32,000 nucleotides of DNA from an uncultured delta proteobacterium (GTDB taxonomy: Bacteria > Desulfobacterota > RBG-13-43-22), in the NCBI GenBank assembly GCA_963769305.1, contig CAVYLJ010000041.1, forward strand, positions 30,082 to 62,081. Direction: 5' to 3'. The notes beneath the pieces are model-generated. The model was not told the origin of the DNA. It saw only the letters and a program-made list of their open reading frames with translations, and did not search any database. Of this stretch, positions 1-11,823 are shown one piece after another (within the stretch, counting starts at the first letter, position 1; each line of letters opens with the position of its first letter). The translations under genes were made by a program, and so were the position numbers.

Positions 1-34
1 ATTTTTATCTATCGACATAGTAACCTTCGTAAAA

Positions 35-3187: not shown

Positions 3188-5474
3188 TTAATATTCAATC
3201 AGACCTTTTAATGAAAAAGAAAGGTAGAATGCGGTATTATCCGGTGCGCTCATATAAGAGACTTTTATCCCCCAACACTGTTTGTTGTAAGCCAAAGAGG
3301 CGGTGGTTGCAAAATTTTTATTCTGGTCAAGGGAATACTGTTCTAAAAGATTGGCCGTCCAAATGGGGCTGATTTTCCAGGATATGTCGGCGTTGACCTG
3401 TCTGAACTGGTCCCCTGAATAGGCCAGATATTCCAAATAAGCCCGATTGCCTTTTTTGTCCATCAAAGTCATGGTGTGACTTTGGGTATCCAGTCGGCCG
3501 GTGTAGGGAGACCAGCCCACACTGGATCGTAAGTTCAAATTAGGGCCGGGAATTAATTCCATTTCAGCGGTGACGTCGGAAAAGGGTTGTGACGTGACCG
3601 ATGTGGTAGTCGTGGTGTTGCCGGTGACCGTCGTTGTCGTAGCGGAGCTCCCCGTCGTAATCGTAGTAGGGATAATGTTGGTGGGGATAGTGGTGCCAGT
3701 GGTGGTGGTAGTAATGGTCCCTTCTCGGGCTACATTAATGTCATAAGTTTGGTATAATTTTAGAGTAAGAAAATCCCGGTAGCCGAAGAGGTCCTCCCCT
3801 TGTGGACTCTTCCCCTGCAACGACTTTGAGGTGAAGGTTTGGATCAAATAATAGGTCAGGGTATTGGTCTTGAAAATAGGCGAAACAAAACTGGGGAGTG
3901 AGTCCTGATTAATTTCCGGGATATAATTATAGATGATTTGAGGGCGGATGGTATGTTTTATTTTTTCACCCTCTTCTCCCGAAAGGTTAAAGACCTTTTG
4001 AAAATCGGTAGACGTATCCAGCCGGAAGTTGGGAACCGACCGGTTTCCCCAAGCATCAACGGAATCACTCTGTCTGTTGCTGACCTGATAGAGATCCTCG
4101 GTTATTCCCAGAGAGGCTTCCGCATTGAGATAATTTCTGAATTTCTGCGGATAGTAGAAAGTCGGAGTCAATTCCAACACCTGCCCGCGATCCAGTTCAT
4201 TGCGATAAAAATAATTATAGGAAGAACCCCATTGCAGAAAAAAATTTTTCCCGAATTCCTGTTTAATACTGTCTAAACGGGCAAAAGGTAGCTGGTTCAA
4301 GACATTATTGGTATTGGTTGGATCCTGATAATAGGTGAACCCGCCGGTAAAATTGGTAGTCCCGAAGCTCTTGTTTAATACAGCGGCATTTCTGCGTAAA
4401 ATTTGGGTTTCATCGTCCAGATCCCGATTAAACTCGCTTAAAAAGGTCCGTCGATTACGGTCCAGGCCAAAGGGGTTGCCCTTGAATTCCTTCAGATAAT
4501 CCTGGTCGCTGACCCAATCCAGATCCATTTTCAAATCCACGCCAGACGGCAGTCCCTGATTCATCTTGGAACGGAACCAATACCGTTCCGAATAGGGTTG
4601 ACTGATATTTCCTTTATTAAATTCTTCCTGGCTCACCCCGTCATGGGGGAGATAATCCATCATCAGGGTCCCTTTGGATTGGGCGGAAAGGATATATCGA
4701 TATTCAAGCCCTTGCATAAACCCTCGGCGACTCATCATATCTTCATAAAAGGTGGCATCGGAACTTTTAGAGATAGCCCAATAGAAAGGTAAATTCAGGG
4801 TGAAACCGTCACGGTCTGGATTGACCGAATTCAGGCATCAAAATGCCGCTCTGCCGGTCTTTCTTGGCGGGAAAAACCATATAAGGGGAGTATAAAACAG
4901 GAAAATCCCTTATACGCAATGATGGACTCCAGGCCTGTCCATAACCCTCGACCGTGACCACAATTTCTTTGGCCTTTATCTCCCAGGGGACATTTTCCCC
5001 GTCACAGGAGGTTACCGTTCCATTGAGGACCCGATAGCTTCCTTCCCCGATTTTATAAATCTCTTCACCGGTAACGTAAAAATGGTTCTCTTTTAAGAAA
5101 AGATGTCCTTTTTGTAGTTCCCCGTTTTTTGTCTTTAAATCGACCGTCAGTTCCTCCCCCTGCATTTCATCCCCGGATGAAGTAAATTTCACATGTCCCC
5201 GGGCCTTGGCAATCATGGTTTGGCGGTCTACCTCGGCATAATCACACTTTAGGACCTGAGTGCCCTGTTTGATGATCACATCTCCGATGGCCGTATAGGT
5301 ATCGGTGTCTTGATCATAGGTCAATTCTCGGGCCTCAATATCCCAGGGTTCTTTGGCGGTTCCCGTTCCCGCACCCGTGGGGATCAGGCCCTCTGCCGCT
5401 TTAGAAGATAGGGGAAACCCCAGGATGATCATTGCAAAAACCAGGATCCCCAGGGTCCAGAACCGGTTGGGCAT
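3188..5474 (-). pseudogene. lptD: LPS-assembly outer membrane protein LptD (OstA), split by one +1 frame break near 4809-4826 as sequenced
   Basis: ORF 4809-5522 has a signal peptide (MPNRFWTLGILVFAMIILGFPLSSKA from the ATG at 5474) and an OstA-like N-terminal domain ending PEFGQS. The +1 frame continues DRDGFTLNLPFYWAISKSSDATFYEDMMSRRGFMQGLEYRY into the beta-barrel ORF 3188-4738. Confidence 0.85.
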
Positions 5475-5623: not shown

Positions 5624-7141
5624 TTAAGTTCGAGTCTTAACCCCTTCTCTTTCCCACCAGGCTCGAGCCTCGCCTACAATAAAAAGTGAACCGGTGATTA
5701 GGATCAAATCCCCTGGTTCGGCTTCCTGCCTGGCTCGTTGTATGGCTGTGGGAATATTTTTTGAAATTTGGCAGGGCCGACTTTCCCCATCGACTAAAGG
5801 TCTTAAGGTCTCCGGGTCGGCTGAGCGATCGTATTCGGCCCGGGTCAAAAAGACCATATGGGCCAAGGGGATTATGACCTTGAATGTCTGTTCGATAGCC
5901 TTATCCTTCATCATCCCGATGATCAGGAAAAGTCTTTTATAAGAAAACACCCGGGGAAGATTCTGGGCTAAGGTCTTCATGGCCCCGGGATTATGGGCCC
6001 CATCCAGGACGATCCAGGGCCTTTCGGATAAAACCTCCATCCTCCCCGGCCAGGCCACCTTCAACAGCCCTTCCCGAAGGGCTTCTTCGTTAACCGGAAA
6101 TTTTCTCTTTAAACAACCGATAACCGTCAGGGCCAGACCGGCGTTCCGGATCTGATGATCCCCAAGAAGGGCGGGGCGAAGCCCCTTTAATTTCGGATTT
6201 CGGATTGCGGGTTGAGGAGTCGGGGTATAGTTCGGAGTTTTGAGTTCGGAGTTCGGAGCAACCAAGGTCTGATCTCTACCCCCTCGTCCCGCGTCCTTCG
6301 TCCAACTTGAATCCAGCAACTTGCATTTTATATCCTCTTCGACTCCGAACACCGAACTCCGAACTCCGAACTGTTGTAACATTCCGCAATCCGCAATCGG
6401 CAACCCGAAATAACTGAACTCCCCATTCCTCAACTTTCTCGTCTTAAAATCCCTTCCGGCCAGTAACATGGGGGCCTGTTTTTCACGGCAGACCTGTTCC
6501 AGGAGACGTTGGACTTTTTTTTGTTCGACCCCGGTTACTAAGGGGACTTGCGGTTTAATAATCCCGGCTTTTTCCAGGGCGATCTTCTCCAGGGTTTTCC
6601 CGAGATATTCCTGATGCTCCAAGGAAACGGTGGTGATGACCGTTATCAGGGGTTCGATGATATTGGTGGAGTCCAGCCTTCCTCCGAGTCCGACTTCCAT
6701 AATAGCCAAGTCCACTTTTTCCCGATAGAAATAGAGTAAGGCCATGGCCGTAACAAACTCAAAGAAGGTCGGGGGTTCGTTAGGATCGGTCTTTCTCTTG
6801 ATCTCTTTAACCAACTCCAGGGTTTTCTCTTTGGAGATCATCCGGCCGTTGATCTGGAACCTTTCCCGGAAATCGATCAGATGGGGGGAGGTGAACAAAC
6901 CAACCTTATACCGGGCTTGACTGTATATGGAGGACAACATGGCCGCTACGGATCCCTTTCCATTGGAACCGGCCACATGGATCATTCGGAGGTGCTTTTC
7001 GGGGTTATTAAAGGCTCGGAGCAGATTTTCCGTTTTAGATAAGCCGAATTTCATACCGAATTTTTGTAAATTGTACAGATAAGACAGGCCCAGATCATAT
7101 TCCAGGTCATAACTCAGACGCTCAAAAGGATGGCCGGCCAT
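5624..7141 (-). CDS. folC: Folylpolyglutamate synthase / dihydrofolate synthase FolC carrying a roughly 73-aa in-frame insertion
   Basis: Mur-ligase P-loop HVAGSNGKGSVAAML, and LLGDHQIRNAGLAL in the C-terminal domain. The track ORF extends to 7330 and overlaps uvrD. The ATG at 7141 follows GGGGAG at a workable spacing; the ATG at 7150 is an alternative start. Confidence 0.9.
   Translation of the reverse strand: MAGHPFERLSYDLEYDLGLSYLYNLQKFGMKFGLSKTENLLRAFNNPEKHLRMIHVAGSNGKGSVAAMLSSIYSQARYKVGLFTSPHLIDFRERFQINGRMISKEKTLELVKEIKRKTDPNEPPTFFEFVTAMALLYFYREKVDLAIMEVGLGGRLDSTNIIEPLITVITTVSLEHQEYLGKTLEKIALEKAGIIKPQVPLVTGVEQKKVQRLLEQVCREKQAPMLLAGRDFKTRKLRNGEFSYFGLPIADCGMLQQFGVRSSVFGVEEDIKCKLLDSSWTKDAGRGGRDQTLVAPNSELKTPNYTPTPQPAIRNPKLKGLRPALLGDHQIRNAGLALTVIGCLKRKFPVNEEALREGLLKVAWPGRMEVLSERPWIVLDGAHNPGAMKTLAQNLPRVFSYKRLFLIIGMMKDKAIEQTFKVIIPLAHMVFLTRAEYDRSADPETLRPLVDGESRPCQISKNIPTAIQRARQEAEPGDLILITGSLFIVGEARAWWEREGVKTRT
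6191..6410. repeat. MITE-like palindromic element (68-nt heptamer-repeat arms, 84-nt centre) embedded in frame in folC
   Basis: Left arm 6191-6258 is tttcggatttcggattgcgggttgagg...agttcggagttttgagttcggagttcggag. Right arm 6343-6410 is ctccgaacaccgaactccgaactccgaact...attccgcaatccgcaatcggcaacccgaaa. About 52 of 68 positions are complementary. The folC frame has no stop across the element. Confidence 0.8.
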
Positions 7142-7142
7142 A

Positions 7143-9260
7143 TTAGACATCTCCCCTTTCCAGGCGGGCATAATCCAGGTGAAGGACCTTGGAGCCGTAG
7201 CGTTTAAAAAGGACGCGAACCTTTCTCTCCCGCGGGGGTTCCTGGATAACCCCATTGCCGAAAAGAGGGTGGAAGACCTTGGTCCCTTTTGAAAACCCGC
7301 TATCCTCTTCTTTTCGGATTTCATGAACATGGTCCGAATCCACCCGGGGCGGATGATTCGGGCCCGGTCTTCCTTGCCGGGCTAATATCTCTTCGGGAAT
7401 ATCGGCGATGAAGTGGCAGAGGTCGTTTTTCTGCCACCCCCCATCCCTTTGGGAGAGGGTGACCGGACAGGTCATAAAAAGTCTTTCTTTGGCCCGGGTG
7501 ATGGCCACATAAAGGAGCCGCCTTTCTTCTTCCATTTCCTCCGAGTCCATCTCGGCATGGGTGGAAGGAAACCGGCCTTCCGCCAGCCAGATGATGAAAA
7601 CGATCCTCCACTCCAGGCCCTTGGCCGAATGGACGGTAGACAGGGTCAACCGGTCCTTTTCAAGATCCTCATGTTCCTCATAGACCTCAAGGCTCAGGTC
7701 CCCCAACAAGGCCTCCGTTTCGGTGTAATTATAACTAACCCGGATGATTTCTTCGATCTCTTTCTGCCGGCGCTGCGGCTCTTCATACAGGCCGGGCATA
7801 AGATTTTTGTAGTAACCCCAGATCAATTCCAGGGCCTCGGTCGGAGTCTGGAGGGGTTGATCGACCAGGGCCTGGAAGAGGGCTGAAAAATCCACAAGTT
7901 GGGATTTAAGGCGGGGATATTGGGAAAGGCATTCCAGGCGTGAAGCCCAGTCCGGGCAGACGGCCATCCGCTCGACGATCTCCTGGGCCCTTTTGGGTCC
8001 CAACCCATCAAGAAGTTTCAGGATTCTTTCCCAGGCCAGTACGTCTTTGGGATTGTGGGCTGCTTTTAAGTACGACAGGAGGTCTTTAATATGGGCCCCC
8101 TCCACAAAGCGACGGCCCCCGTATTTTTTAAATGGGATGCCCTGCTTTTGAAGGGACACTTCCAGGTTAAAGGAATGATGGCCGGCCCGAAACAGGACGG
8201 CCATTTCCTGCCAGGGGATCCCCTGTCTATGAAATTCCTGAAGTTGCTGGGTCACATACTGGGATTGGGACTCTTCGTAAGGCACTTCGAGACAACGGGG
8301 CGGTTCCCCTGTTTTAATGCGGGTAAAGAGGCATTTACTATATCGCTCCTTAGAATAACTGATGACCTTATTGGCCAGGTTCAGGATCGGCTGGGAGCTG
8401 CGGAAGTTTTCCTCTAATTTGATCAGACGGGTTCCGGGATATTGGTTTGGAAAGTCCAGGATATTTTTAAAGTGGGCGCCCCGAAACCCGTAAATCGACT
8501 GGGAATCATCCCCGACTACCATGACATTTCCTCGGGCCAAATGGCGGACCATTTCGGCTTGGAGCAGATTGGTATCCTGGTATTCATCCACTAAAACATA
8601 CCGATAATAAGAGGCCAATTTTTGGGCTACCTGTGCTTCCTGCCTGAAAAGTTGCAGGCAATGACTCAGGAGATCGTCATAATCCAGTAAGCCGTGCTCT
8701 TTTTTGAAGGCTTCATACTCTTGATTCAGGTCCTTGAGCTGGGATGGAGATGGACCCGTTTCCAAAAATGAATCATAAAGCCCTTCTTCGAAGACCTGGC
8801 CCCGGTTGACGATACGACTCAAGAGCTCCAGGAATTCCTTTTTATCAGGCCGATCCTTGTTTTTATCCCAACCTTTCTGTTTGATGATCTTTCCGACGAT
8901 CTCTTCACTGTCTTTCCGGTCCAACACGGTCAACGGACTCCGGAGACCGATCGCCGCCCCATAAATCCTTAGGATTTTATAGGCCAAGGAATGAAACGTC
9001 CCGCCGGCCACTTCCTGACAGGACCGCTCCAGCATGAGTTCCACCCGGCGGAGCATCTCCTGGGAGGCCTTGCGGGTAAAGGTCAACAAAAGGATCCTCT
9101 CCGGTGGGATCCCATTTTCAACCAGCCAGGCCACCCGATAGACCAGGGTGCGGGTCTTTCCGCTTCCGGCCCCGGCAATGACCAAGGTAGGCCCGTCCGG
9201 TGAAAAGACCGCCTCCTGCTGGGCCTTGGTTAGATTTTTTTGATAATCGATTTTCCCCAT
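7143..9260 (-). CDS. UvrD/PcrA/Rep-family ATP-dependent DNA helicase
   Basis: Motif I is VIAGAGSGKTRTLVYR and motif II is VLVDEYQDTN. The C-terminal tail (GTKVFHPLFGNGVIQE...VLFKRYGSKVLHLDYARL) is typical of PcrA/UvrD. The 705-aa ORF is intact. Confidence 0.9.
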   Translation of the reverse strand: MGKIDYQKNLTKAQQEAVFSPDGPTLVIAGAGSGKTRTLVYRVAWLVENGIPPERILLLTFTRKASQEMLRRVELMLERSCQEVAGGTFHSLAYKILRIYGAAIGLRSPLTVLDRKDSEEIVGKIIKQKGWDKNKDRPDKKEFLELLSRIVNRGQVFEEGLYDSFLETGPSPSQLKDLNQEYEAFKKEHGLLDYDDLLSHCLQLFRQEAQVAQKLASYYRYVLVDEYQDTNLLQAEMVRHLARGNVMVVGDDSQSIYGFRGAHFKNILDFPNQYPGTRLIKLEENFRSSQPILNLANKVISYSKERYSKCLFTRIKTGEPPRCLEVPYEESQSQYVTQQLQEFHRQGIPWQEMAVLFRAGHHSFNLEVSLQKQGIPFKKYGGRRFVEGAHIKDLLSYLKAAHNPKDVLAWERILKLLDGLGPKRAQEIVERMAVCPDWASRLECLSQYPRLKSQLVDFSALFQALVDQPLQTPTEALELIWGYYKNLMPGLYEEPQRRQKEIEEIIRVSYNYTETEALLGDLSLEVYEEHEDLEKDRLTLSTVHSAKGLEWRIVFIIWLAEGRFPSTHAEMDSEEMEEERRLLYVAITRAKERLFMTCPVTLSQRDGGWQKNDLCHFIADIPEEILARQGRPGPNHPPRVDSDHVHEIRKEEDSGFSKGTKVFHPLFGNGVIQEPPRERKVRVLFKRYGSKVLHLDYARLERGDV

Positions 9261-9420
9261 ATACCTAAAGTCGCTTTTATCCTTCCCGACTATTTTTCCG
9301 AACTCGGAGATTAAACTCCAAACGGATATTTTTATTAATGCCCCGTCTTACTAAAAAAGGCCGGGACTGTAAACCTATAAATTAGGCTTGCGGCCGGCGG
9401 CTTCAAGAAAAATTTACCAT

Positions 9421-9549: not shown

Positions 9550-10737
9550 ATGGCCGAGGAAAGCATCTTAAAGACAAAATTTCGGCAAGGATACAAGGCC
9601 CTTTTTTATCAACAATGGCCGCCCCTGACCGGGGGGGTATTATTAGGGCTCAGTAGCATCTTGATCGTTGCCTGGTCCAGACCGTGGGGTATCGTCGGAG
9701 GAATCCGTAATTGGGCTGACTGGCTTTTTTACGGCCTGGGTTTCTTTCCGGAACGCCCGGAGAACGCCTTCTTTTATTCTTCCTCGATTATGGATATCGG
9801 ATTTTTATTAGGGGCCTTCGGAGCGGCCCTCTTAGCCAAGGAGTTCGCCCTGAGAAAAACACCGGCCTTGGAGATCATAAAAGGGCTGGCCGGCGGGGTC
9901 TTCATGGGAATCGGCTCGGCCCTGGCCATGGGTTGCAATGTCGGGGCTTTTTATACCCCCTTGATCAACCTTTCGGCCAGCGGTTTCCCGATGCTGGTCG
10001 GACTGACCATCGGCGCTTTTATCGGTTTAAAATATCTTTTATGGGAACTGGAAAAATTCCCTCCCCCATCCGGATTTACACCCACGGCCTCTTTAGGAAA
10101 AAAAAGGGTTGATTGGAAGATTATCCAACCTTATTTAGGCACCCTGGTCTTTATTGGTTTGATCGTCTGGGCTTACTGGTATTCCGGAAAAGCCTATACG
10201 GAAATCGGCGGCCTCCTGCTCTTCGGTGCCGCTTTCGGAATCATCCTGCAGCGCTGCCGCTTTTGTTTTGTCCGAGCCTTTCGAGACCCTTTTATGACCG
10301 GAGAGGCGACCATCGCCAAGGCCATCGCCGTCAGTATTATCATCGGCGCCATAGGCGTAGCGGTTTTGAAATGGAGCGGATTTCGTCAGGAAAGCCTCTA
10401 TGTCATCCCGGCCTTCTGGTGGGGGTCGCTGGTGGGTGGCACCATATTCGGGATCGGAATGGTCATCGCCGGCGGATGCGGAAGCGGAACCTTGTGGCGG
10501 GTATCCGAAGGACAGCTTAAGCTCTGGGCGGCCCTTTTTACCTTTGCGACGACCAATTCCTTGATGAACGTCCTTCTCCGAACCACCGGCTGGCGTCAAA
10601 AATTGGGGAAGGCGGTATTTTTGCCCCAGACCTTCGGCTGGGGCGGAAGTATCCTCTTCATTGCCTTTATCCTGCTGATATGGTATCTATTAGTAACCTG
10701 GAATGAAGAGAGTAATAAATTCACAGTAGGATTATAA
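9550..10737 (+). CDS. YedE/YeeE-family sulfur (thiosulfate) transporter
   Basis: Polytopic membrane protein with two conserved Cys-loop motifs, GSALAMGCNVGAF and VIAGGCGSGTLWR, as in YeeE/YedE. It is followed by a TusA-like gene. Confidence 0.85.
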   Translation: MAEESILKTKFRQGYKALFYQQWPPLTGGVLLGLSSILIVAWSRPWGIVGGIRNWADWLFYGLGFFPERPENAFFYSSSIMDIGFLLGAFGAALLAKEFALRKTPALEIIKGLAGGVFMGIGSALAMGCNVGAFYTPLINLSASGFPMLVGLTIGAFIGLKYLLWELEKFPPPSGFTPTASLGKKRVDWKIIQPYLGTLVFIGLIVWAYWYSGKAYTEIGGLLLFGAAFGIILQRCRFCFVRAFRDPFMTGEATIAKAIAVSIIIGAIGVAVLKWSGFRQESLYVIPAFWWGSLVGGTIFGIGMVIAGGCGSGTLWRVSEGQLKLWAALFTFATTNSLMNVLLRTTGWRQKLGKAVFLPQTFGWGGSILFIAFILLIWYLLVTWNEESNKFTVGL

Positions 10738-10742
10738 AAACC

Positions 10743-10815
10743 GGTATAAGGTGCAGGGCATAGGGTTTAAGGAATGCCCCTTGCCTTGGACCTTATACCT
10801 TAAACCTTGCACCTT
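10743..10815. repeat. Intercistronic hairpin built from NNNNAGG / CCTNNNN heptamers (yedE-tusA spacer)
   Basis: Left arm is ggtataaggtgcagggcatagggtttaagg. Right arm is ccttggaccttataccttaaaccttgcacctt. The heptads tataagg, tgcaagg and tttaagg occur on both arms as complements. The right arm abuts the tusA RBS GGAAGGAGG. Confidence 0.65.
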
Positions 10816-10832
10816 GGAAGGAGGAAATCATC

Positions 10833-11069
10833 ATGGAAGATATTAAACCCGATCAAACCTTGGATGCCCGGGGACTCAGTTGCCCCATGCCGGTTTTAAA
10901 AACCAAAAAGGCGATTGAGAATCTCAAGTCCGGAGAAATCCTGGAGGTCTTAGGAACCGATCCGGGGACCAGAAACGACATGCCCGGCTGGGCCAACCGC
11001 ACCGGGAACATTTACCTCGGGGAGAAAGAAGACCAAGGCTTTATTCGTTTTTACGTCAAGAAAAAGTAA
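10833..11069 (+). CDS. tusA: TusA/SirA-family sulfurtransferase
   Basis: 78 aa. LDARGLSCPMPVLKTKKAIENL carries the CPxP active-site motif. A strong RBS precedes the gene. Confidence 0.9.
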   Translation: MEDIKPDQTLDARGLSCPMPVLKTKKAIENLKSGEILEVLGTDPGTRNDMPGWANRTGNIYLGEKEDQGFIRFYVKKK

Positions 11070-11707: not shown

Positions 11708-11823
11708 CGGTTCGAGGTCCCAGGTACAAGGGGGATCAGATTCTCGTATTCACGCGTTGTAGGCCCCGGCATGTGATTTTTCTTTAAACCTTGTACCTCG
11801 TACCTTGAACCTTGTACCTTGAG
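11708..11823. repeat. Intercistronic hairpin built from TNCNAGG / CCTNGNA heptamers
   Basis: Left arm is cggttcgaggtcccaggtacaagggg. Right arm is ccttgtacctcgtaccttgaaccttgtaccttgag. About 20 of 25 arm positions are complementary, and the central loop is about 60 nt. Confidence 0.65.

What the first reader, a model, noticed from the sequence alone, without database searches (positions are those of the whole stretch)
6191..6410. A 220-bp palindromic heptamer-repeat element sits in frame inside folC
Two 68-nt arms are about three-quarters complementary and flank an 84-nt centre. The arms are built from TTTCGGA/TTGCGGG and AGTTCGG heptamers on one side and their complements on the other. The folC frame reads straight through. 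This adds about 73 aa (FGLPIADCGMLQQFGVRSSVFGVEE...NSELKTPNYTPTPQPAIRNPKL) between NGEFSY and KGLRPALLGDHQIRNA, where Mur-ligase-type FolC proteins normally have only a short loop. The closest precedent I know is the Rickettsia palindromic elements, which insert in frame into protein genes. Here the host would be a central folate enzyme in an unrelated lineage, and the element has a different repeat architecture.
Basis: partly seen in the sequence, partly recalled or inferred. Interest (0 to 1): 0.78.

Follow-up and report, generated by a model that had tools for sequence, protein, structure and literature searches.

The report
Heptamer-repeat hairpin translated inside folC
A 222-bp hairpin-forming stretch made of 7-base tandem repeats sits in frame in a surface turn of the folate enzyme FolC, where it is read into a floppy 74-residue loop; it is one fast-changing example of a repeat class that is common in these anaerobic bacteria and that tolerates life inside essential genes.

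Summary
Arms 6190-6258 and 6343-6411 (69 nt, 77% complementary) flank an 84-nt centre. All parts are tandem 7-nt arrays. The folC frame on the minus strand runs straight through.

The insert is not private to this genome. A monophyletic clade of uncultured Thermodesulfobacteriota FolC proteins carries homologous DNA at the same beta-turn. Its length ranges from 7 to about 107 residues. Outgroup FolC proteins have only the native 7-residue turn.

The DNA is a nested imperfect palindrome of related units: ATTTCGG/ATTGCGG outside, AGTTCGG inside, and a GGACGAR core. AlphaFold models the insert as a disordered loop between two confident strands.

Period-7 tracts are strongly enriched in this clade and in Nitrospirota. 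They often pair as hairpins, and they occur in other FolC loops and in other housekeeping genes.

The composite element has no second copy in the DNA I hold. There is no target-site duplication, no transposase nearby and no Rfam match.

Best reading: an STRR-like heptanucleotide-array palindrome, acquired once. It is translated as a tolerated passenger loop and remodelled by slippage, fold-back copying and in-frame deletion. It resembles Rickettsia palindromic elements in effect only. How such arrays spread remains unknown.

The parts
5624..7141 (-). folC (folylpolyglutamate synthase/dihydrofolate synthase), 505 aa plus stop; host gene of the insert
   Evidence: ORF. TIGR01499 scores 393 bits and Pfam finds Mur_ligase_M and Mur_ligase_C. 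The 505-aa database protein P0001 is 100% identical. The start MAGHPF is at 7141, with an alternative MSNMAGHPF at 7150.
6188..6409 (-). In-frame insert of 74 codons (FGLPIADCG...AIRNPKL) that replaces the native 7-residue beta-turn; net gain 67 aa
   Evidence: Translation. GRDF..QIxNA spacing is 106 aa against 39 aa. AlphaFold pLDDT is below 50 for residues 256-317, between strands 248-250 and 324-327. 1o5z has about 10 residues at this position.
6343..6411 (.). Arm on the gene's 5' side. On the coding strand it reads as the outer array (ATTGCGG-type, + strand TCCGCAA x4.1 at 6383-6411), an unpaired spacer, then the inner array (AGTTCGG-type, + strand ACTCCGA x4.4 at 6342-6372)
6259..6342 (.). 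84-nt centre, including a third heptamer array (+ strand CCCTCGT x3.3 at 6281-6303; coding strand GGACGAA GGACGCG GGACGAG) that has no complement in this genome
   Evidence: The core is homologous in L003, L004 and L005. In L003 it is paired with a complementary array.
6190..6258 (.). Arm on the gene's 3' side: inner array AGTTCGG x4.3 (6229-6258), a spacer, and outer array ATTTCGG x3.0 (6190-6210). On the coding strand these read CCGAACT... and ...CCGAAAT
10743..10818 (.). Separate intergenic heptamer-array hairpin (CCTTNNA units and their complements) between the Sulf_transp gene and a TusA-like gene
   Evidence: inverted pairs I2 and I4; -41.9 kcal/mol over 10730-10830.
11709..11821 (.). 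Separate intergenic heptamer-array hairpin (GGTNCNA ... CCTTGTA x4.9). It has the same unit family as tracts in L001 and L002
   Evidence: I3: 23 nt, 87% complementary; -51.3 kcal/mol.
9297..9308 (-). Short palindromic remnant TCCGAGTTCGGA in the leader of the uvrD-like gene. At the orthologous site L003, L006 and L015 carry large ATTGCGG/ATTTCGG heptamer hairpins

Best explanation
The segment is a heptanucleotide tandem-array palindrome, comparable to the cyanobacterial STRR type. It lodged once in a beta-turn of the FolC ATP-binding (Mur-ligase middle) domain, in the ancestor of a clade of uncultured Thermodesulfobacteriota.

It is transcribed and translated with the gene. Because 7 is not a multiple of 3, each array is read in all three frames in turn. 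This gives 7-residue peptide periods such as SSEFGVR, PNSELRT, IADCGLR and IPQSAIRNP.

The product is a disordered surface loop that FolC tolerates. The DNA keeps changing through slippage of 7-nt units, fold-back or template-switch copying between the two arms, exchange with other heptamer hairpins nearby, and deletions. Selection removes only variants that break the frame, introduce a stop or harm the enzyme. I read it as passenger DNA rather than an adaptation.

Shown: the anatomy, the in-frame status, the clade distribution, the homology of modules, the length turnover, the predicted disorder, and the enrichment of period-7 tracts in these lineages.

Inferred: the mutational mechanisms, the neutrality, and the single origin.
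For: Anatomy and non-randomness.

A single site with a monophyletic carrier clade. The insert-free outgroups P0100, P0066, P0054, P0059 and P0049 keep a 7-residue turn. Carriers range from 13 to 107 residues. Short forms nest among long ones (P0042 14 next to P0022 77). Close sisters differ widely: P0009, P0007 and P0006 have 48, 107 and 76 residues.

Homology of non-array junctions. GGAATGnnnnnACAGTTCGG and the core GATGCAAG..GGACGAAGGACGAGGG are shared by WIN, L001-L005, L011 and L015. The stretch CCGAACTCCGAACTCAAAACTCCGAACTATACCCCGA is identical in WIN and L001.

Decay without loss of the gene. L002 keeps only one arm (23 extra aa). L006 and L007 keep 10 and 7 extra aa.

Translation. The frame is open and the length is a multiple of 3 in all 10 DNA loci. 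The peptides are exact heptamer translations. All units used are stop-free in all frames on both strands.

Structure. pLDDT is below 50 for residues 256-317, with no secondary structure, while the flanks are confident.

Membership of a wider class. Period-7 tracts number 109 in 1.36 Mb, against 2, 12, 12 and 19 for periods 5, 6, 8 and 9. Density is 13.1 per 100 kb in this clade, 11.3 in Nitrospirota, 3.3 in other deltaproteobacterial and miscellaneous loci, and 0 in 50 kb of E. coli. One third of tracts have a reverse-complement partner within 450 nt. The window has two further intergenic hairpins.

Exchange between hairpins. The same 32-nt exact match (about 36 nt aligned, with one mismatch) lies in the L006 folC insert and in an intergenic heptamer hairpin 3 kb away.
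Against: The same unit families recur at unrelated loci. Examples are the uvrD-like leader in L003, L006 and L015, another FolC loop in Nitrospirota L055, and (ATTGCGG)4 at 8-9 tracts per 10 kb in some contigs. Purely local slippage does not explain this; some copying or spreading process must exist.

The same units (CCGAAC-type and CAAYCCG-type) sit at the same FolC turn in Nitrospirota, whose FolC is only about 36% identical. A single origin within one clade does not account for that.

Persistence across a clade with FolC identity down to about 57-65% could also mean the loop or the hairpin is useful. Neutrality is inferred, not measured.

I could not scan the source genome itself.
Confidence: 0.6

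Rival explanations
1. A non-autonomous mobile palindromic element (MITE- or RPE-like) transposed into folC. It, or nested sub-elements inserted into hairpin loops, is still mobilised in trans by an enzyme encoded elsewhere.
For: The architecture is that of a terminal inverted repeat. The layering is nested, with unpaired spacers that look like the loop of an outer hairpin split by an inner one. L006 carries a different inner module between the same outer arms, and an identical 32-nt core of it (about 36 nt aligned) lies in a second hairpin 3 kb away. L055 has a 'PPLSPFTKGG'-type palindrome nested inside heptamer arms within folC. Specific units are multi-copy in single contigs.
Against: BLAST of the element against all DNA held matches only folC orthologs once the AGTTCGG array is set aside. 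phmmer of the 74-aa peptide against 1.84 billion representatives gives one spurious hit. There is no clean target-site duplication: the native TGFGKVY turn is replaced rather than split. None of the 11 window ORFs scanned is a transposase. The junctions are homologous across the clade, which fits descent rather than repeated insertion.
Confidence: 0.22
2. The insert is maintained because it is useful. It might act as an mRNA hairpin (RNase III site, translational pause between FolC domains, transcript stabiliser), or as a flexible protein loop that modulates FolC.
For: It has been retained at one site throughout a clade. The predicted hairpin is strong (z = -5.4). The intergenic relatives lie between cistrons of operons, where cyanobacterial STRR hairpins have been proposed to stabilise transcripts or couple translation (PMC2670836).
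Against: Length varies from 7 to about 107 residues, even between close sisters. L002 lost one whole arm and L006/L007 lost almost everything, yet the gene is intact. The arms are only 77% complementary, and variant units (TGTTCGG, CAAAACT) are not compensated. The peptide sequence is dictated by the DNA unit and is predicted to be disordered.
Confidence: 0.12
3. Artefact or removable element: an assembly or sequencing error in a repeat, or an intron or intein that is spliced out.
For: Repeats and palindromes are prone to misassembly. One relative (P0061, L201) has folC truncated inside the insert.
Against: Homologous inserts appear in more than 25 FolC sequences from separate contigs and sources. 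The L201 contig has frameshifts throughout, with uvrD in four pieces, so its truncation is generic error. There is no Rfam match at gathering threshold or at E<=1. At 74 aa with no Pfam domain it is too small for an intein. An element that is spliced out would not need to keep the frame open in every ortholog.
Confidence: 0.03

Closest known systems
Cyanobacterial STRR (short tandemly repeated repetitive) heptanucleotide sequences
   Same: Both consist of 7-bp tandem units. A few unit families recur at many loci of a genome. Arrays are often inverted and able to form hairpins, and they lie between cistrons of operons (PMC2670836). STRRs are also reported inside a functional gene, the RNase P RNA gene (Vioque 1997, title seen; that they extend a helix there is from my own knowledge).
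   Different: The phyla differ (Thermodesulfobacteriota and Nitrospirota here) and so do the units. Here the arrays are nested palindromes of several related units and are translated in frame inside a protein-coding gene. I found no description of STRRs doing that.
Rickettsia palindromic elements (RPE)
   Same: Both are palindromic DNA of 100-200 bp inserted in frame into housekeeping genes, leaving the host protein intact with an extra segment (Ogata et al. 2000 as summarised in PMC3184786).
   Different: RPEs are dispersed families with a conserved consensus and no tandem-heptamer substructure; this statement about their internal structure is from my own knowledge. Here no second copy of the composite was found, and the sequence is built from 7-nt arrays with rapid copy-number turnover. 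The host is a free-living anaerobe, not an obligate intracellular bacterium.
Geobacter metallireducens four-unit heptanucleotide elements (GGACCGG) and class-3 MTYCTGA arrays
   Same: Both are tandem heptanucleotide arrays in a related 'deltaproteobacterial' lineage. [quoted passage not shown]
   Different: The Geobacter elements are described as direct four-unit arrays and as putative regulatory elements. They are not described as nested palindromes, and no in-frame hypervariable protein loop or ortholog comparison is reported.
TAACTGA heptamer direct repeats of Beggiatoaceae, cyanobacteria and Bacteroidetes
   Same: In both cases one heptamer is repeated at hundreds of loci and shared across distant phyla without a known transfer mechanism. 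A few arrays lie inside ORFs and translate into 7-residue periods (PMC4679880).
   Different: The TAACTGA arrays are overwhelmingly intergenic direct repeats just upstream of start codons. That unit contains stop codons in the forward orientation, and only one inverted repeat was noted.
MITEs / REPINs
   Same: Both are short non-coding palindromic repeats that fold into long hairpins and are sometimes fused to ORFs (PMC3184786).
   Different: Here there is no target-site duplication, no partner IS or RAYT in the window, and no conserved multi-copy consensus. The internal tandem 7-nt structure is also not a MITE or REPIN feature.

Membership tests
FolC (folylpolyglutamate/dihydrofolate synthase) - host gene | Match to the family model above its curated cut-off; Mur-ligase middle and C-terminal domains | tested here: met
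   TIGR01499 scores 393.2 bits against a cut-off of 162.65, in two stretches split by the insert. PF08245 and PF02875 both match. The best solved relative is 1o5z, E = 3e-75.
STRR-like heptanucleotide arrays | Tandem units of exactly 7 nt | tested here: met
   TRF finds five period-7 arrays in 6190-6411. Period 7 is the only enriched period from 4 to 11 in the window, apart from a single period-12 tract.
STRR-like heptanucleotide arrays | A few unit families recurring at many loci of the genome | tested here: inconclusive
   Only 32 kb of this genome and about 20-kb pieces of relatives were available. Within them the units AAATCCG (5 tracts), AACTCCG (4), AATCCGC (3) and AACCTTG (3) recur at folC, the uvrD-like leader and other sites. 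Density is 13.1 tracts per 100 kb. A whole-genome count was not possible.
STRR-like heptanucleotide arrays | Inverted arrays able to form hairpins | tested here: met
   33% of all tracts have a reverse-complement partner within 450 nt.
STRR-like heptanucleotide arrays | Heterocyst-forming cyanobacterial host and the canonical STRR units | tested here: not met
   The closest genomes are uncultured Thermodesulfobacteriota or 'delta proteobacterium' MAGs. The units are ATTTCGG, ATTGCGG and AGTTCGG. It therefore works like an STRR but is not a member in the strict sense.
Rickettsia palindromic elements | Palindromic element of roughly 100-150 bp inserted in frame in an intact ORF | tested here: met
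   222 bp, with 69-nt arms and an open frame.
Rickettsia palindromic elements | Dispersed multi-copy family with a conserved consensus, found in many different genes | tested here: not met
   No second copy of the composite appears in any DNA held. The peptide has no relatives among 1.84 billion representative proteins. Caveat: the source genome itself could not be scanned.
Rickettsia palindromic elements | Sequence similarity to RPE-1..8 consensus; Rickettsia lineage | not tested
   No RPE consensus sequences were available in the tools. The lineage is clearly different.
MITE | Terminal inverted repeats flanked by a target-site duplication | tested here: inconclusive
   Imperfect terminal inverted arrays are present. 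TTA occurs on both flanks, but the native turn (TGFGKVY codons) is replaced rather than split, so there is no clean duplication.
MITE | Partner transposase or IS with the same ends; filled and empty sites among close relatives | tested here: not met
   There is no transposase among the 11 window ORFs scanned. The site is occupied throughout the clade and empty only in distant lineages.
Self-splicing intron / intein | Ribozyme or splicing-domain signature; no need for an open frame | tested here: not met
   No Rfam match at E<=1. No Pfam domain in the insert. The frame is kept open in all orthologs.

The most novel reading that the evidence does not exclude
Heptamer-array hairpins could be a self-propagating class of repeat DNA in Thermodesulfobacteriota and Nitrospirota. 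Particular 7-nt units would be copied between loci, and possibly between phyla, by an unknown templated or enzyme-driven process that targets existing hairpins and permissive protein loops. folC would then be a recurrent landing site.

Two results point that way. The same unit families sit at the same FolC beta-turn in two phyla whose FolC is only about 36% identical. Identical inner modules are shared between hairpins in one genome.
Probability: 0.2. Interest if true: 0.75.

Novelty: new variant of a known kind. Interest (0 to 1): 0.55.

Why it matters
Heptanucleotide arrays are the most over-represented long simple repeats in bacteria. They are thought to avoid coding regions, because 7 is not a multiple of 3 (PMC4692102). 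In-frame palindromic inserts are usually treated as a Rickettsia curiosity.

This locus shows both features combined in free-living anaerobes. Nested heptamer palindromes live inside an essential enzyme and are read in all three frames in turn. They persist for a long time while their length changes quickly. They also recur in several FolC loops and in other housekeeping genes.

That has three uses:
- It gives a natural series of filled, partly decayed and empty sites for studying how such repeats arise and spread.
- It marks loops that tolerate large insertions.
- It is a practical warning for annotation and alignment of MAG proteins, where these 7-residue periodic low-complexity segments could be mistaken for lineage-specific domains.

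Tried and rejected
1. Word-indexed protein search with the 74-aa insert. It returned no candidates at all, not even the parent protein, so it is uninformative.

2. Exhaustive phmmer of the insert against 1.84 billion representatives. The single hit, P0121, is an unrelated repetitive protein. There is thus no evidence that the composite peptide occurs in other proteins.

3. Metagenome scan with (AGTTCGG)3. It was too generic. At least 120 stretches matched, with GC from 0.33 to 0.71. Most were one-directional arrays, and only 5 of 85 clusters had both orientations. It did reveal in-frame arrays in other genes.

4. The idea that AGTTCGG or ATTGCGG are specially favoured units. Rejected. In viral contigs, composition-matched stop-free control heptamers gave 11, 1, 36 and 17 contigs, against 17 and 54 for the two units.

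5. Truncated FolC P0061 as evidence of slippage-driven phase variation. Rejected, because its contig is full of frameshifts.

6. Laying the insert out in rows of 7 to test for one continuous register. This is uninformative, because any period-7 array looks aligned whatever its phase.

7. A preference for four units per array. Perfect-array lengths show only a weak bump at 4-4.5 units, so I make no claim.

8. Rfam at gathering and permissive thresholds gave nothing. The promoter and terminator scan gave nothing above shuffle expectation.
Full report

Yes. The repeat finder reports arms 6190-6258 and 6343-6411, each 69 nt and 77% complementary, separated by 84 nt.

Tandem Repeats Finder finds five period-7 arrays inside 6190-6411:
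- ATTTCGG x3.0
- AGTTCGG x4.3
- CCCTCGT x3.3 (in the centre)
- ACTCCGA x4.4
- TCCGCAA x4.1

A two-unit probe with up to 2 mismatches hits 7 times in the window, all within this segment. Shuffles give 0.3 on average.

Period 7 is the only enriched period from 4 to 11 in the whole window.

As a single strand the segment folds into one long imperfect hairpin:

| Molecule | Energy (kcal/mol) | z-score | Shuffles as good |
|---|---|---|---|
| RNA | -94.9 | -5.4 | 0 of 200 |
| DNA | -47.7 | -5.2 | 0 of 200 |

**2. Host gene and position**

The gene lies on the minus strand at 5624-7141. It is folC: TIGR01499 scores 393 bits against a cut-off of 162.65, matched in two stretches, and the Mur-ligase M and C domains are present. 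A 505-aa database protein is identical.

window:6188-6409:- translates without a stop into the 74 residues FGLPIADCG...AIRNPKL.

Insert-free FolC proteins have 39 residues between GRDF and Q-I-x-N-A. The window has 106, so the net gain is 67 residues replacing a 7-residue turn.

In T. maritima FPGS/DHFS (1o5z) the corresponding stretch is residues 256-266.

AlphaFold, run on a 36-sequence alignment, gives mean pLDDT 79.7. The domains are confident. Residues 256-317 score below 50 and have no secondary structure. They sit between strands 248-250 and 324-327.

**3. Orthologs**

The closest FolC proteins come from uncultured Thermodesulfobacteriota or 'delta proteobacterium' MAGs. At exactly this turn they carry segments of very different lengths.

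The peptides are recognisable translations of the same heptamers: FGFRISDFG, SSEFGVR, NSELRTPN, IPQSAIRNPKL.

I built a neighbour-joining tree with the insert columns removed:
- The carriers form one clade.
- The outgroups P0100, P0066, P0054, P0059 and P0049 keep the native 7-residue turn.
- Short forms of 13-18 residues nest among long ones.
- Close sisters differ greatly: 48, 107 and 76 residues.

This fits one acquisition followed by fast expansion and contraction.

**4. DNA anatomy across ten loci**

All long versions are nested imperfect palindromes with the same layout:
- an outer layer, (ATTTCGG/ATTGCGG)n paired with (CCGCAAT/CCGAAAT)n
- unpaired spacers
- an inner layer, (AGTTCGG)n paired with (CCGAACT)n
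- a core built from GATGCAA- and GGACGAR-type units

The three arm units differ from one another by single substitutions.

Non-array junctions and the core align across WIN, L001-L005, L011 and L015. A 37-nt stretch that includes the variant unit CAAAACT is identical in WIN and L001. These inserts are therefore homologous by descent.

Individual lineages differ:
- L001 lacks about 48 nt of core.
- L002 has lost the whole 3' arm.
- L003 has gained a complement to the core array.
- L005 has a (GTCACTC)4 array at its edge.
- L006 and L007 keep only 10 and 7 extra residues.

Within each genome the arrays are near-perfect, even though the genomes have diverged. This implies continual homogenisation.

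**5. Is the insert translated?**

Every one of the ten loci keeps the frame open across an insert whose length differs. That would not be required if the segment were spliced out.

All units involved are stop-free in all three frames on both strands. About half of all heptamer classes share this property.

Rfam gives no match, even at E<=1.

The one truncated relative, P0061, lies on a contig riddled with frameshifts. I discount it.

**6. The wider class**

The window holds two more heptamer-array hairpins. Both are intergenic and sit between cistrons, at 10743-10818 and 11709-11821. There is also a 12-nt remnant in the uvrD-like leader, at a site where L003, L006 and L015 carry large ATTGCGG/ATTTCGG hairpins.

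Across the window plus the 80 folC-centred loci (1.36 Mb), tracts by period are:

| Period | 5 | 6 | 7 | 8 | 9 |
|---|---|---|---|---|---|
| Tracts | 2 | 12 | 109 | 12 | 19 |

Density of period-7 tracts by group:

| Group | Tracts per 100 kb |
|---|---|
| Window clade | 13.1 |
| Nitrospirota | 11.3 |
| Other deltaproteobacterial and miscellaneous loci | 3.3 |
| E. coli (50 kb) | 0 |

One third of tracts have a reverse-complement partner nearby. Two thirds lie in long open frames, although the sample is centred on folC.

Nitrospirota FolC proteins carry in-frame heptamer hairpins at three or more further loops. One, in L055, uses the same ATTGCGG/CCGAAAT units. Another, also in L055, has a 'PPLSPFTKGG'-type palindrome nested between heptamer arms.

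In metagenome contigs, (AGTTCGG)n arrays lie in frame in ORFs that I recognise by motif, not by a tool, as UvrA, ArgRS, MetRS, KdtA, LpxB, an NRPS and a histidine kinase.

**7. Is the composite mobile?**

Evidence against:
- BLAST of the element against all held DNA finds only folC orthologs once the AGTTCGG array is set aside.
- The peptide has no relatives among 1.84 billion representative proteins.
- There is no clean target-site duplication.
- None of the 11 window ORFs scanned is a transposase.

Evidence that something copies sequence between hairpins:
- L006 has the same module (32-nt exact match, about 36 nt aligned with one mismatch) in its folC insert and in an intergenic hairpin 3 kb away.
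- The same units recur at several loci.
- Some contigs carry (ATTGCGG)4 at 8-9 tracts per 10 kb.

The units themselves are not unusual. Composition-matched controls are about as frequent in viral contigs. Every heptamer array tested was recovered in at least one viral contig (1 to 54 contigs), whereas by my rough estimate an exact 21-mer would be expected less than once by chance.

**8. Most likely mechanism (confidence about 0.6)**

An STRR-like heptanucleotide-array palindrome became established once in a permissive beta-turn of FolC. It is transcribed and translated as a disordered passenger loop.

Its DNA turns over in four ways: slippage of 7-nt units, fold-back or template-switch copying between arms, exchange with other heptamer hairpins, and deletions. 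Selection filters only for frame, absence of stops and tolerable loops.

- Shown: anatomy, frame, distribution, homology, turnover, disorder, lineage enrichment.
- Inferred: the mutational processes, neutrality, single origin.

The rivals are a MITE/RPE-like mobile element (0.22), a functional mRNA hairpin or protein loop (0.12), and an artefact or spliced element (0.03).

**9. Comparison with what is known**

The closest match in architecture is the cyanobacterial STRR. STRRs are 7-bp units forming hairpins between cistrons (PMC2670836). [quoted passage not shown]

The Geobacter metallireducens heptanucleotide elements are also close. They are 'found within genes ... as well as between genes' (PMC2700814).

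The closest match in effect is the Rickettsia palindromic element, together with other repeats fused in frame to ORFs (PMC3184786).

The element is not a member of either RPE or STRR in the strict sense. The lineage differs, the units differ and no dispersed consensus was found.

[quoted passage not shown] My seven literature searches found no description of nested heptamer palindromes translated inside essential genes of these phyla.

**10. Unexplained**

Nitrospirota FolC proteins are only about 36% identical to the window's. Yet at the same turn they carry small arrays of the same unit families: TCCGAAC... in L043, GAACTCC... in L075, and (CAACCCG)n followed by GCAATAAAGGG in L063, L070 and L071. 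Intermediate lineages have none.

Ancient homology with many losses, transfer between phyla, and sequence-directed convergence all remain open.

**11. Limits**

- I could not scan the source genome.
- I could not inspect reads.
- I had no transcript or protein data.
- The loci sampled are centred on folC, so genic and intergenic proportions are biased.

Noticed in passing
window 10743-10818 and 11709-11821: Two intergenic hairpins are built from CCTTNNA-type heptamer arrays and their complements. They sit between cistrons: Sulf_transp to a TusA-like gene, and after a DsrE/F-like trio. The same unit family (AACCTTG) occurs in L001 at 10894-10921 and L002 at 4946-4980.
   Followed up: partly
window 9297-9308 (- strand); L006:4330-4590, L003:7400-7570, L015:1690-1850: The leader of the uvrD-like gene carries large ATTGCGG/ATTTCGG/ATTCGGA heptamer hairpins in three relatives. 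In the window it carries only the 12-nt palindrome TCCGAGTTCGGA. This is a second orthologous site with presence, absence and size variation.
   Followed up: partly
L006:4464-4495 and L006:7415-7446: An identical 32-nt sequence (CCTCCGGyCCAGAGGGGCCTCCGACCCGGAGG; the two copies align over about 36 nt with one mismatch) is nested between ATTGCGG-type arms at two loci 3 kb apart. One copy is inside folC and the other is intergenic. It suggests copying between hairpins.
   Followed up: partly
L055:9880-10040 and 10390-10530; L052:5895-6030; L075:11310-11430; L065 (several sites): Nitrospirota folC genes carry in-frame heptamer hairpins in at least three other loops. Some contain nested G/C-run palindromes that translate to 'PPLxKGG'-like peptides (PLNPPLLRGELKGG, PPLSPFTKGGSKRR, NPPLPPFNSPLSKGGYRGV).
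   Followed up: partly
L043, L075, L033, L063, L070, L071 (FolC beta-turn): The same unit families as in the window element (CCGAAC-type and CAAYCCG-type) occur at the same FolC turn in Nitrospirota. Their FolC is only about 36% identical, and intermediate lineages lack any insert. This is unexplained.
   Followed up: partly
L086, L092, L094, L095/L158, L113, L124, L132, L138, L150 (metagenome contigs): (AGTTCGG)n arrays lie in frame, read as SELRTPN or SEFGVRS, inside long ORFs. From their motifs I take these to be an NRPS adenylation domain, UvrA, KdtA, ArgRS, LpxB, MetRS, a histidine kinase, a phosphoglycerate mutase and a Gfo/Idh/MocA oxidoreductase. The identifications were made by eye and not checked with a tool.
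   Followed up: no
L251, L254, L259 (IMG/VR contigs, GC 0.61-0.66): These contigs are labelled viral and carry (ATTGCGG)~4 arrays in both orientations at 5-9 period-7 tracts per 10 kb, together with companion units (AATGCAG, AGTGCGG). The host and the true viral status are unknown.
   Followed up: no
window ~3550-3685 (- strand), inside the LptD-like ORF 3188-4738: A threonine-rich low-complexity segment (TITTTTTGTTIPTNIIPTTITTGSSATTTTVTGNTTTTTSVTS) lies inside an outer-membrane LptD-like protein. I did not examine whether orthologs share it.
   Followed up: no
L201 (ENA contig_52628): This close relative's contig has uvrD split into four ORFs and folC into two, which is typical of indel-rich long-read assembly. 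Truncated proteins from such contigs should not be read as pseudogenes or phase variants.
   Followed up: yes
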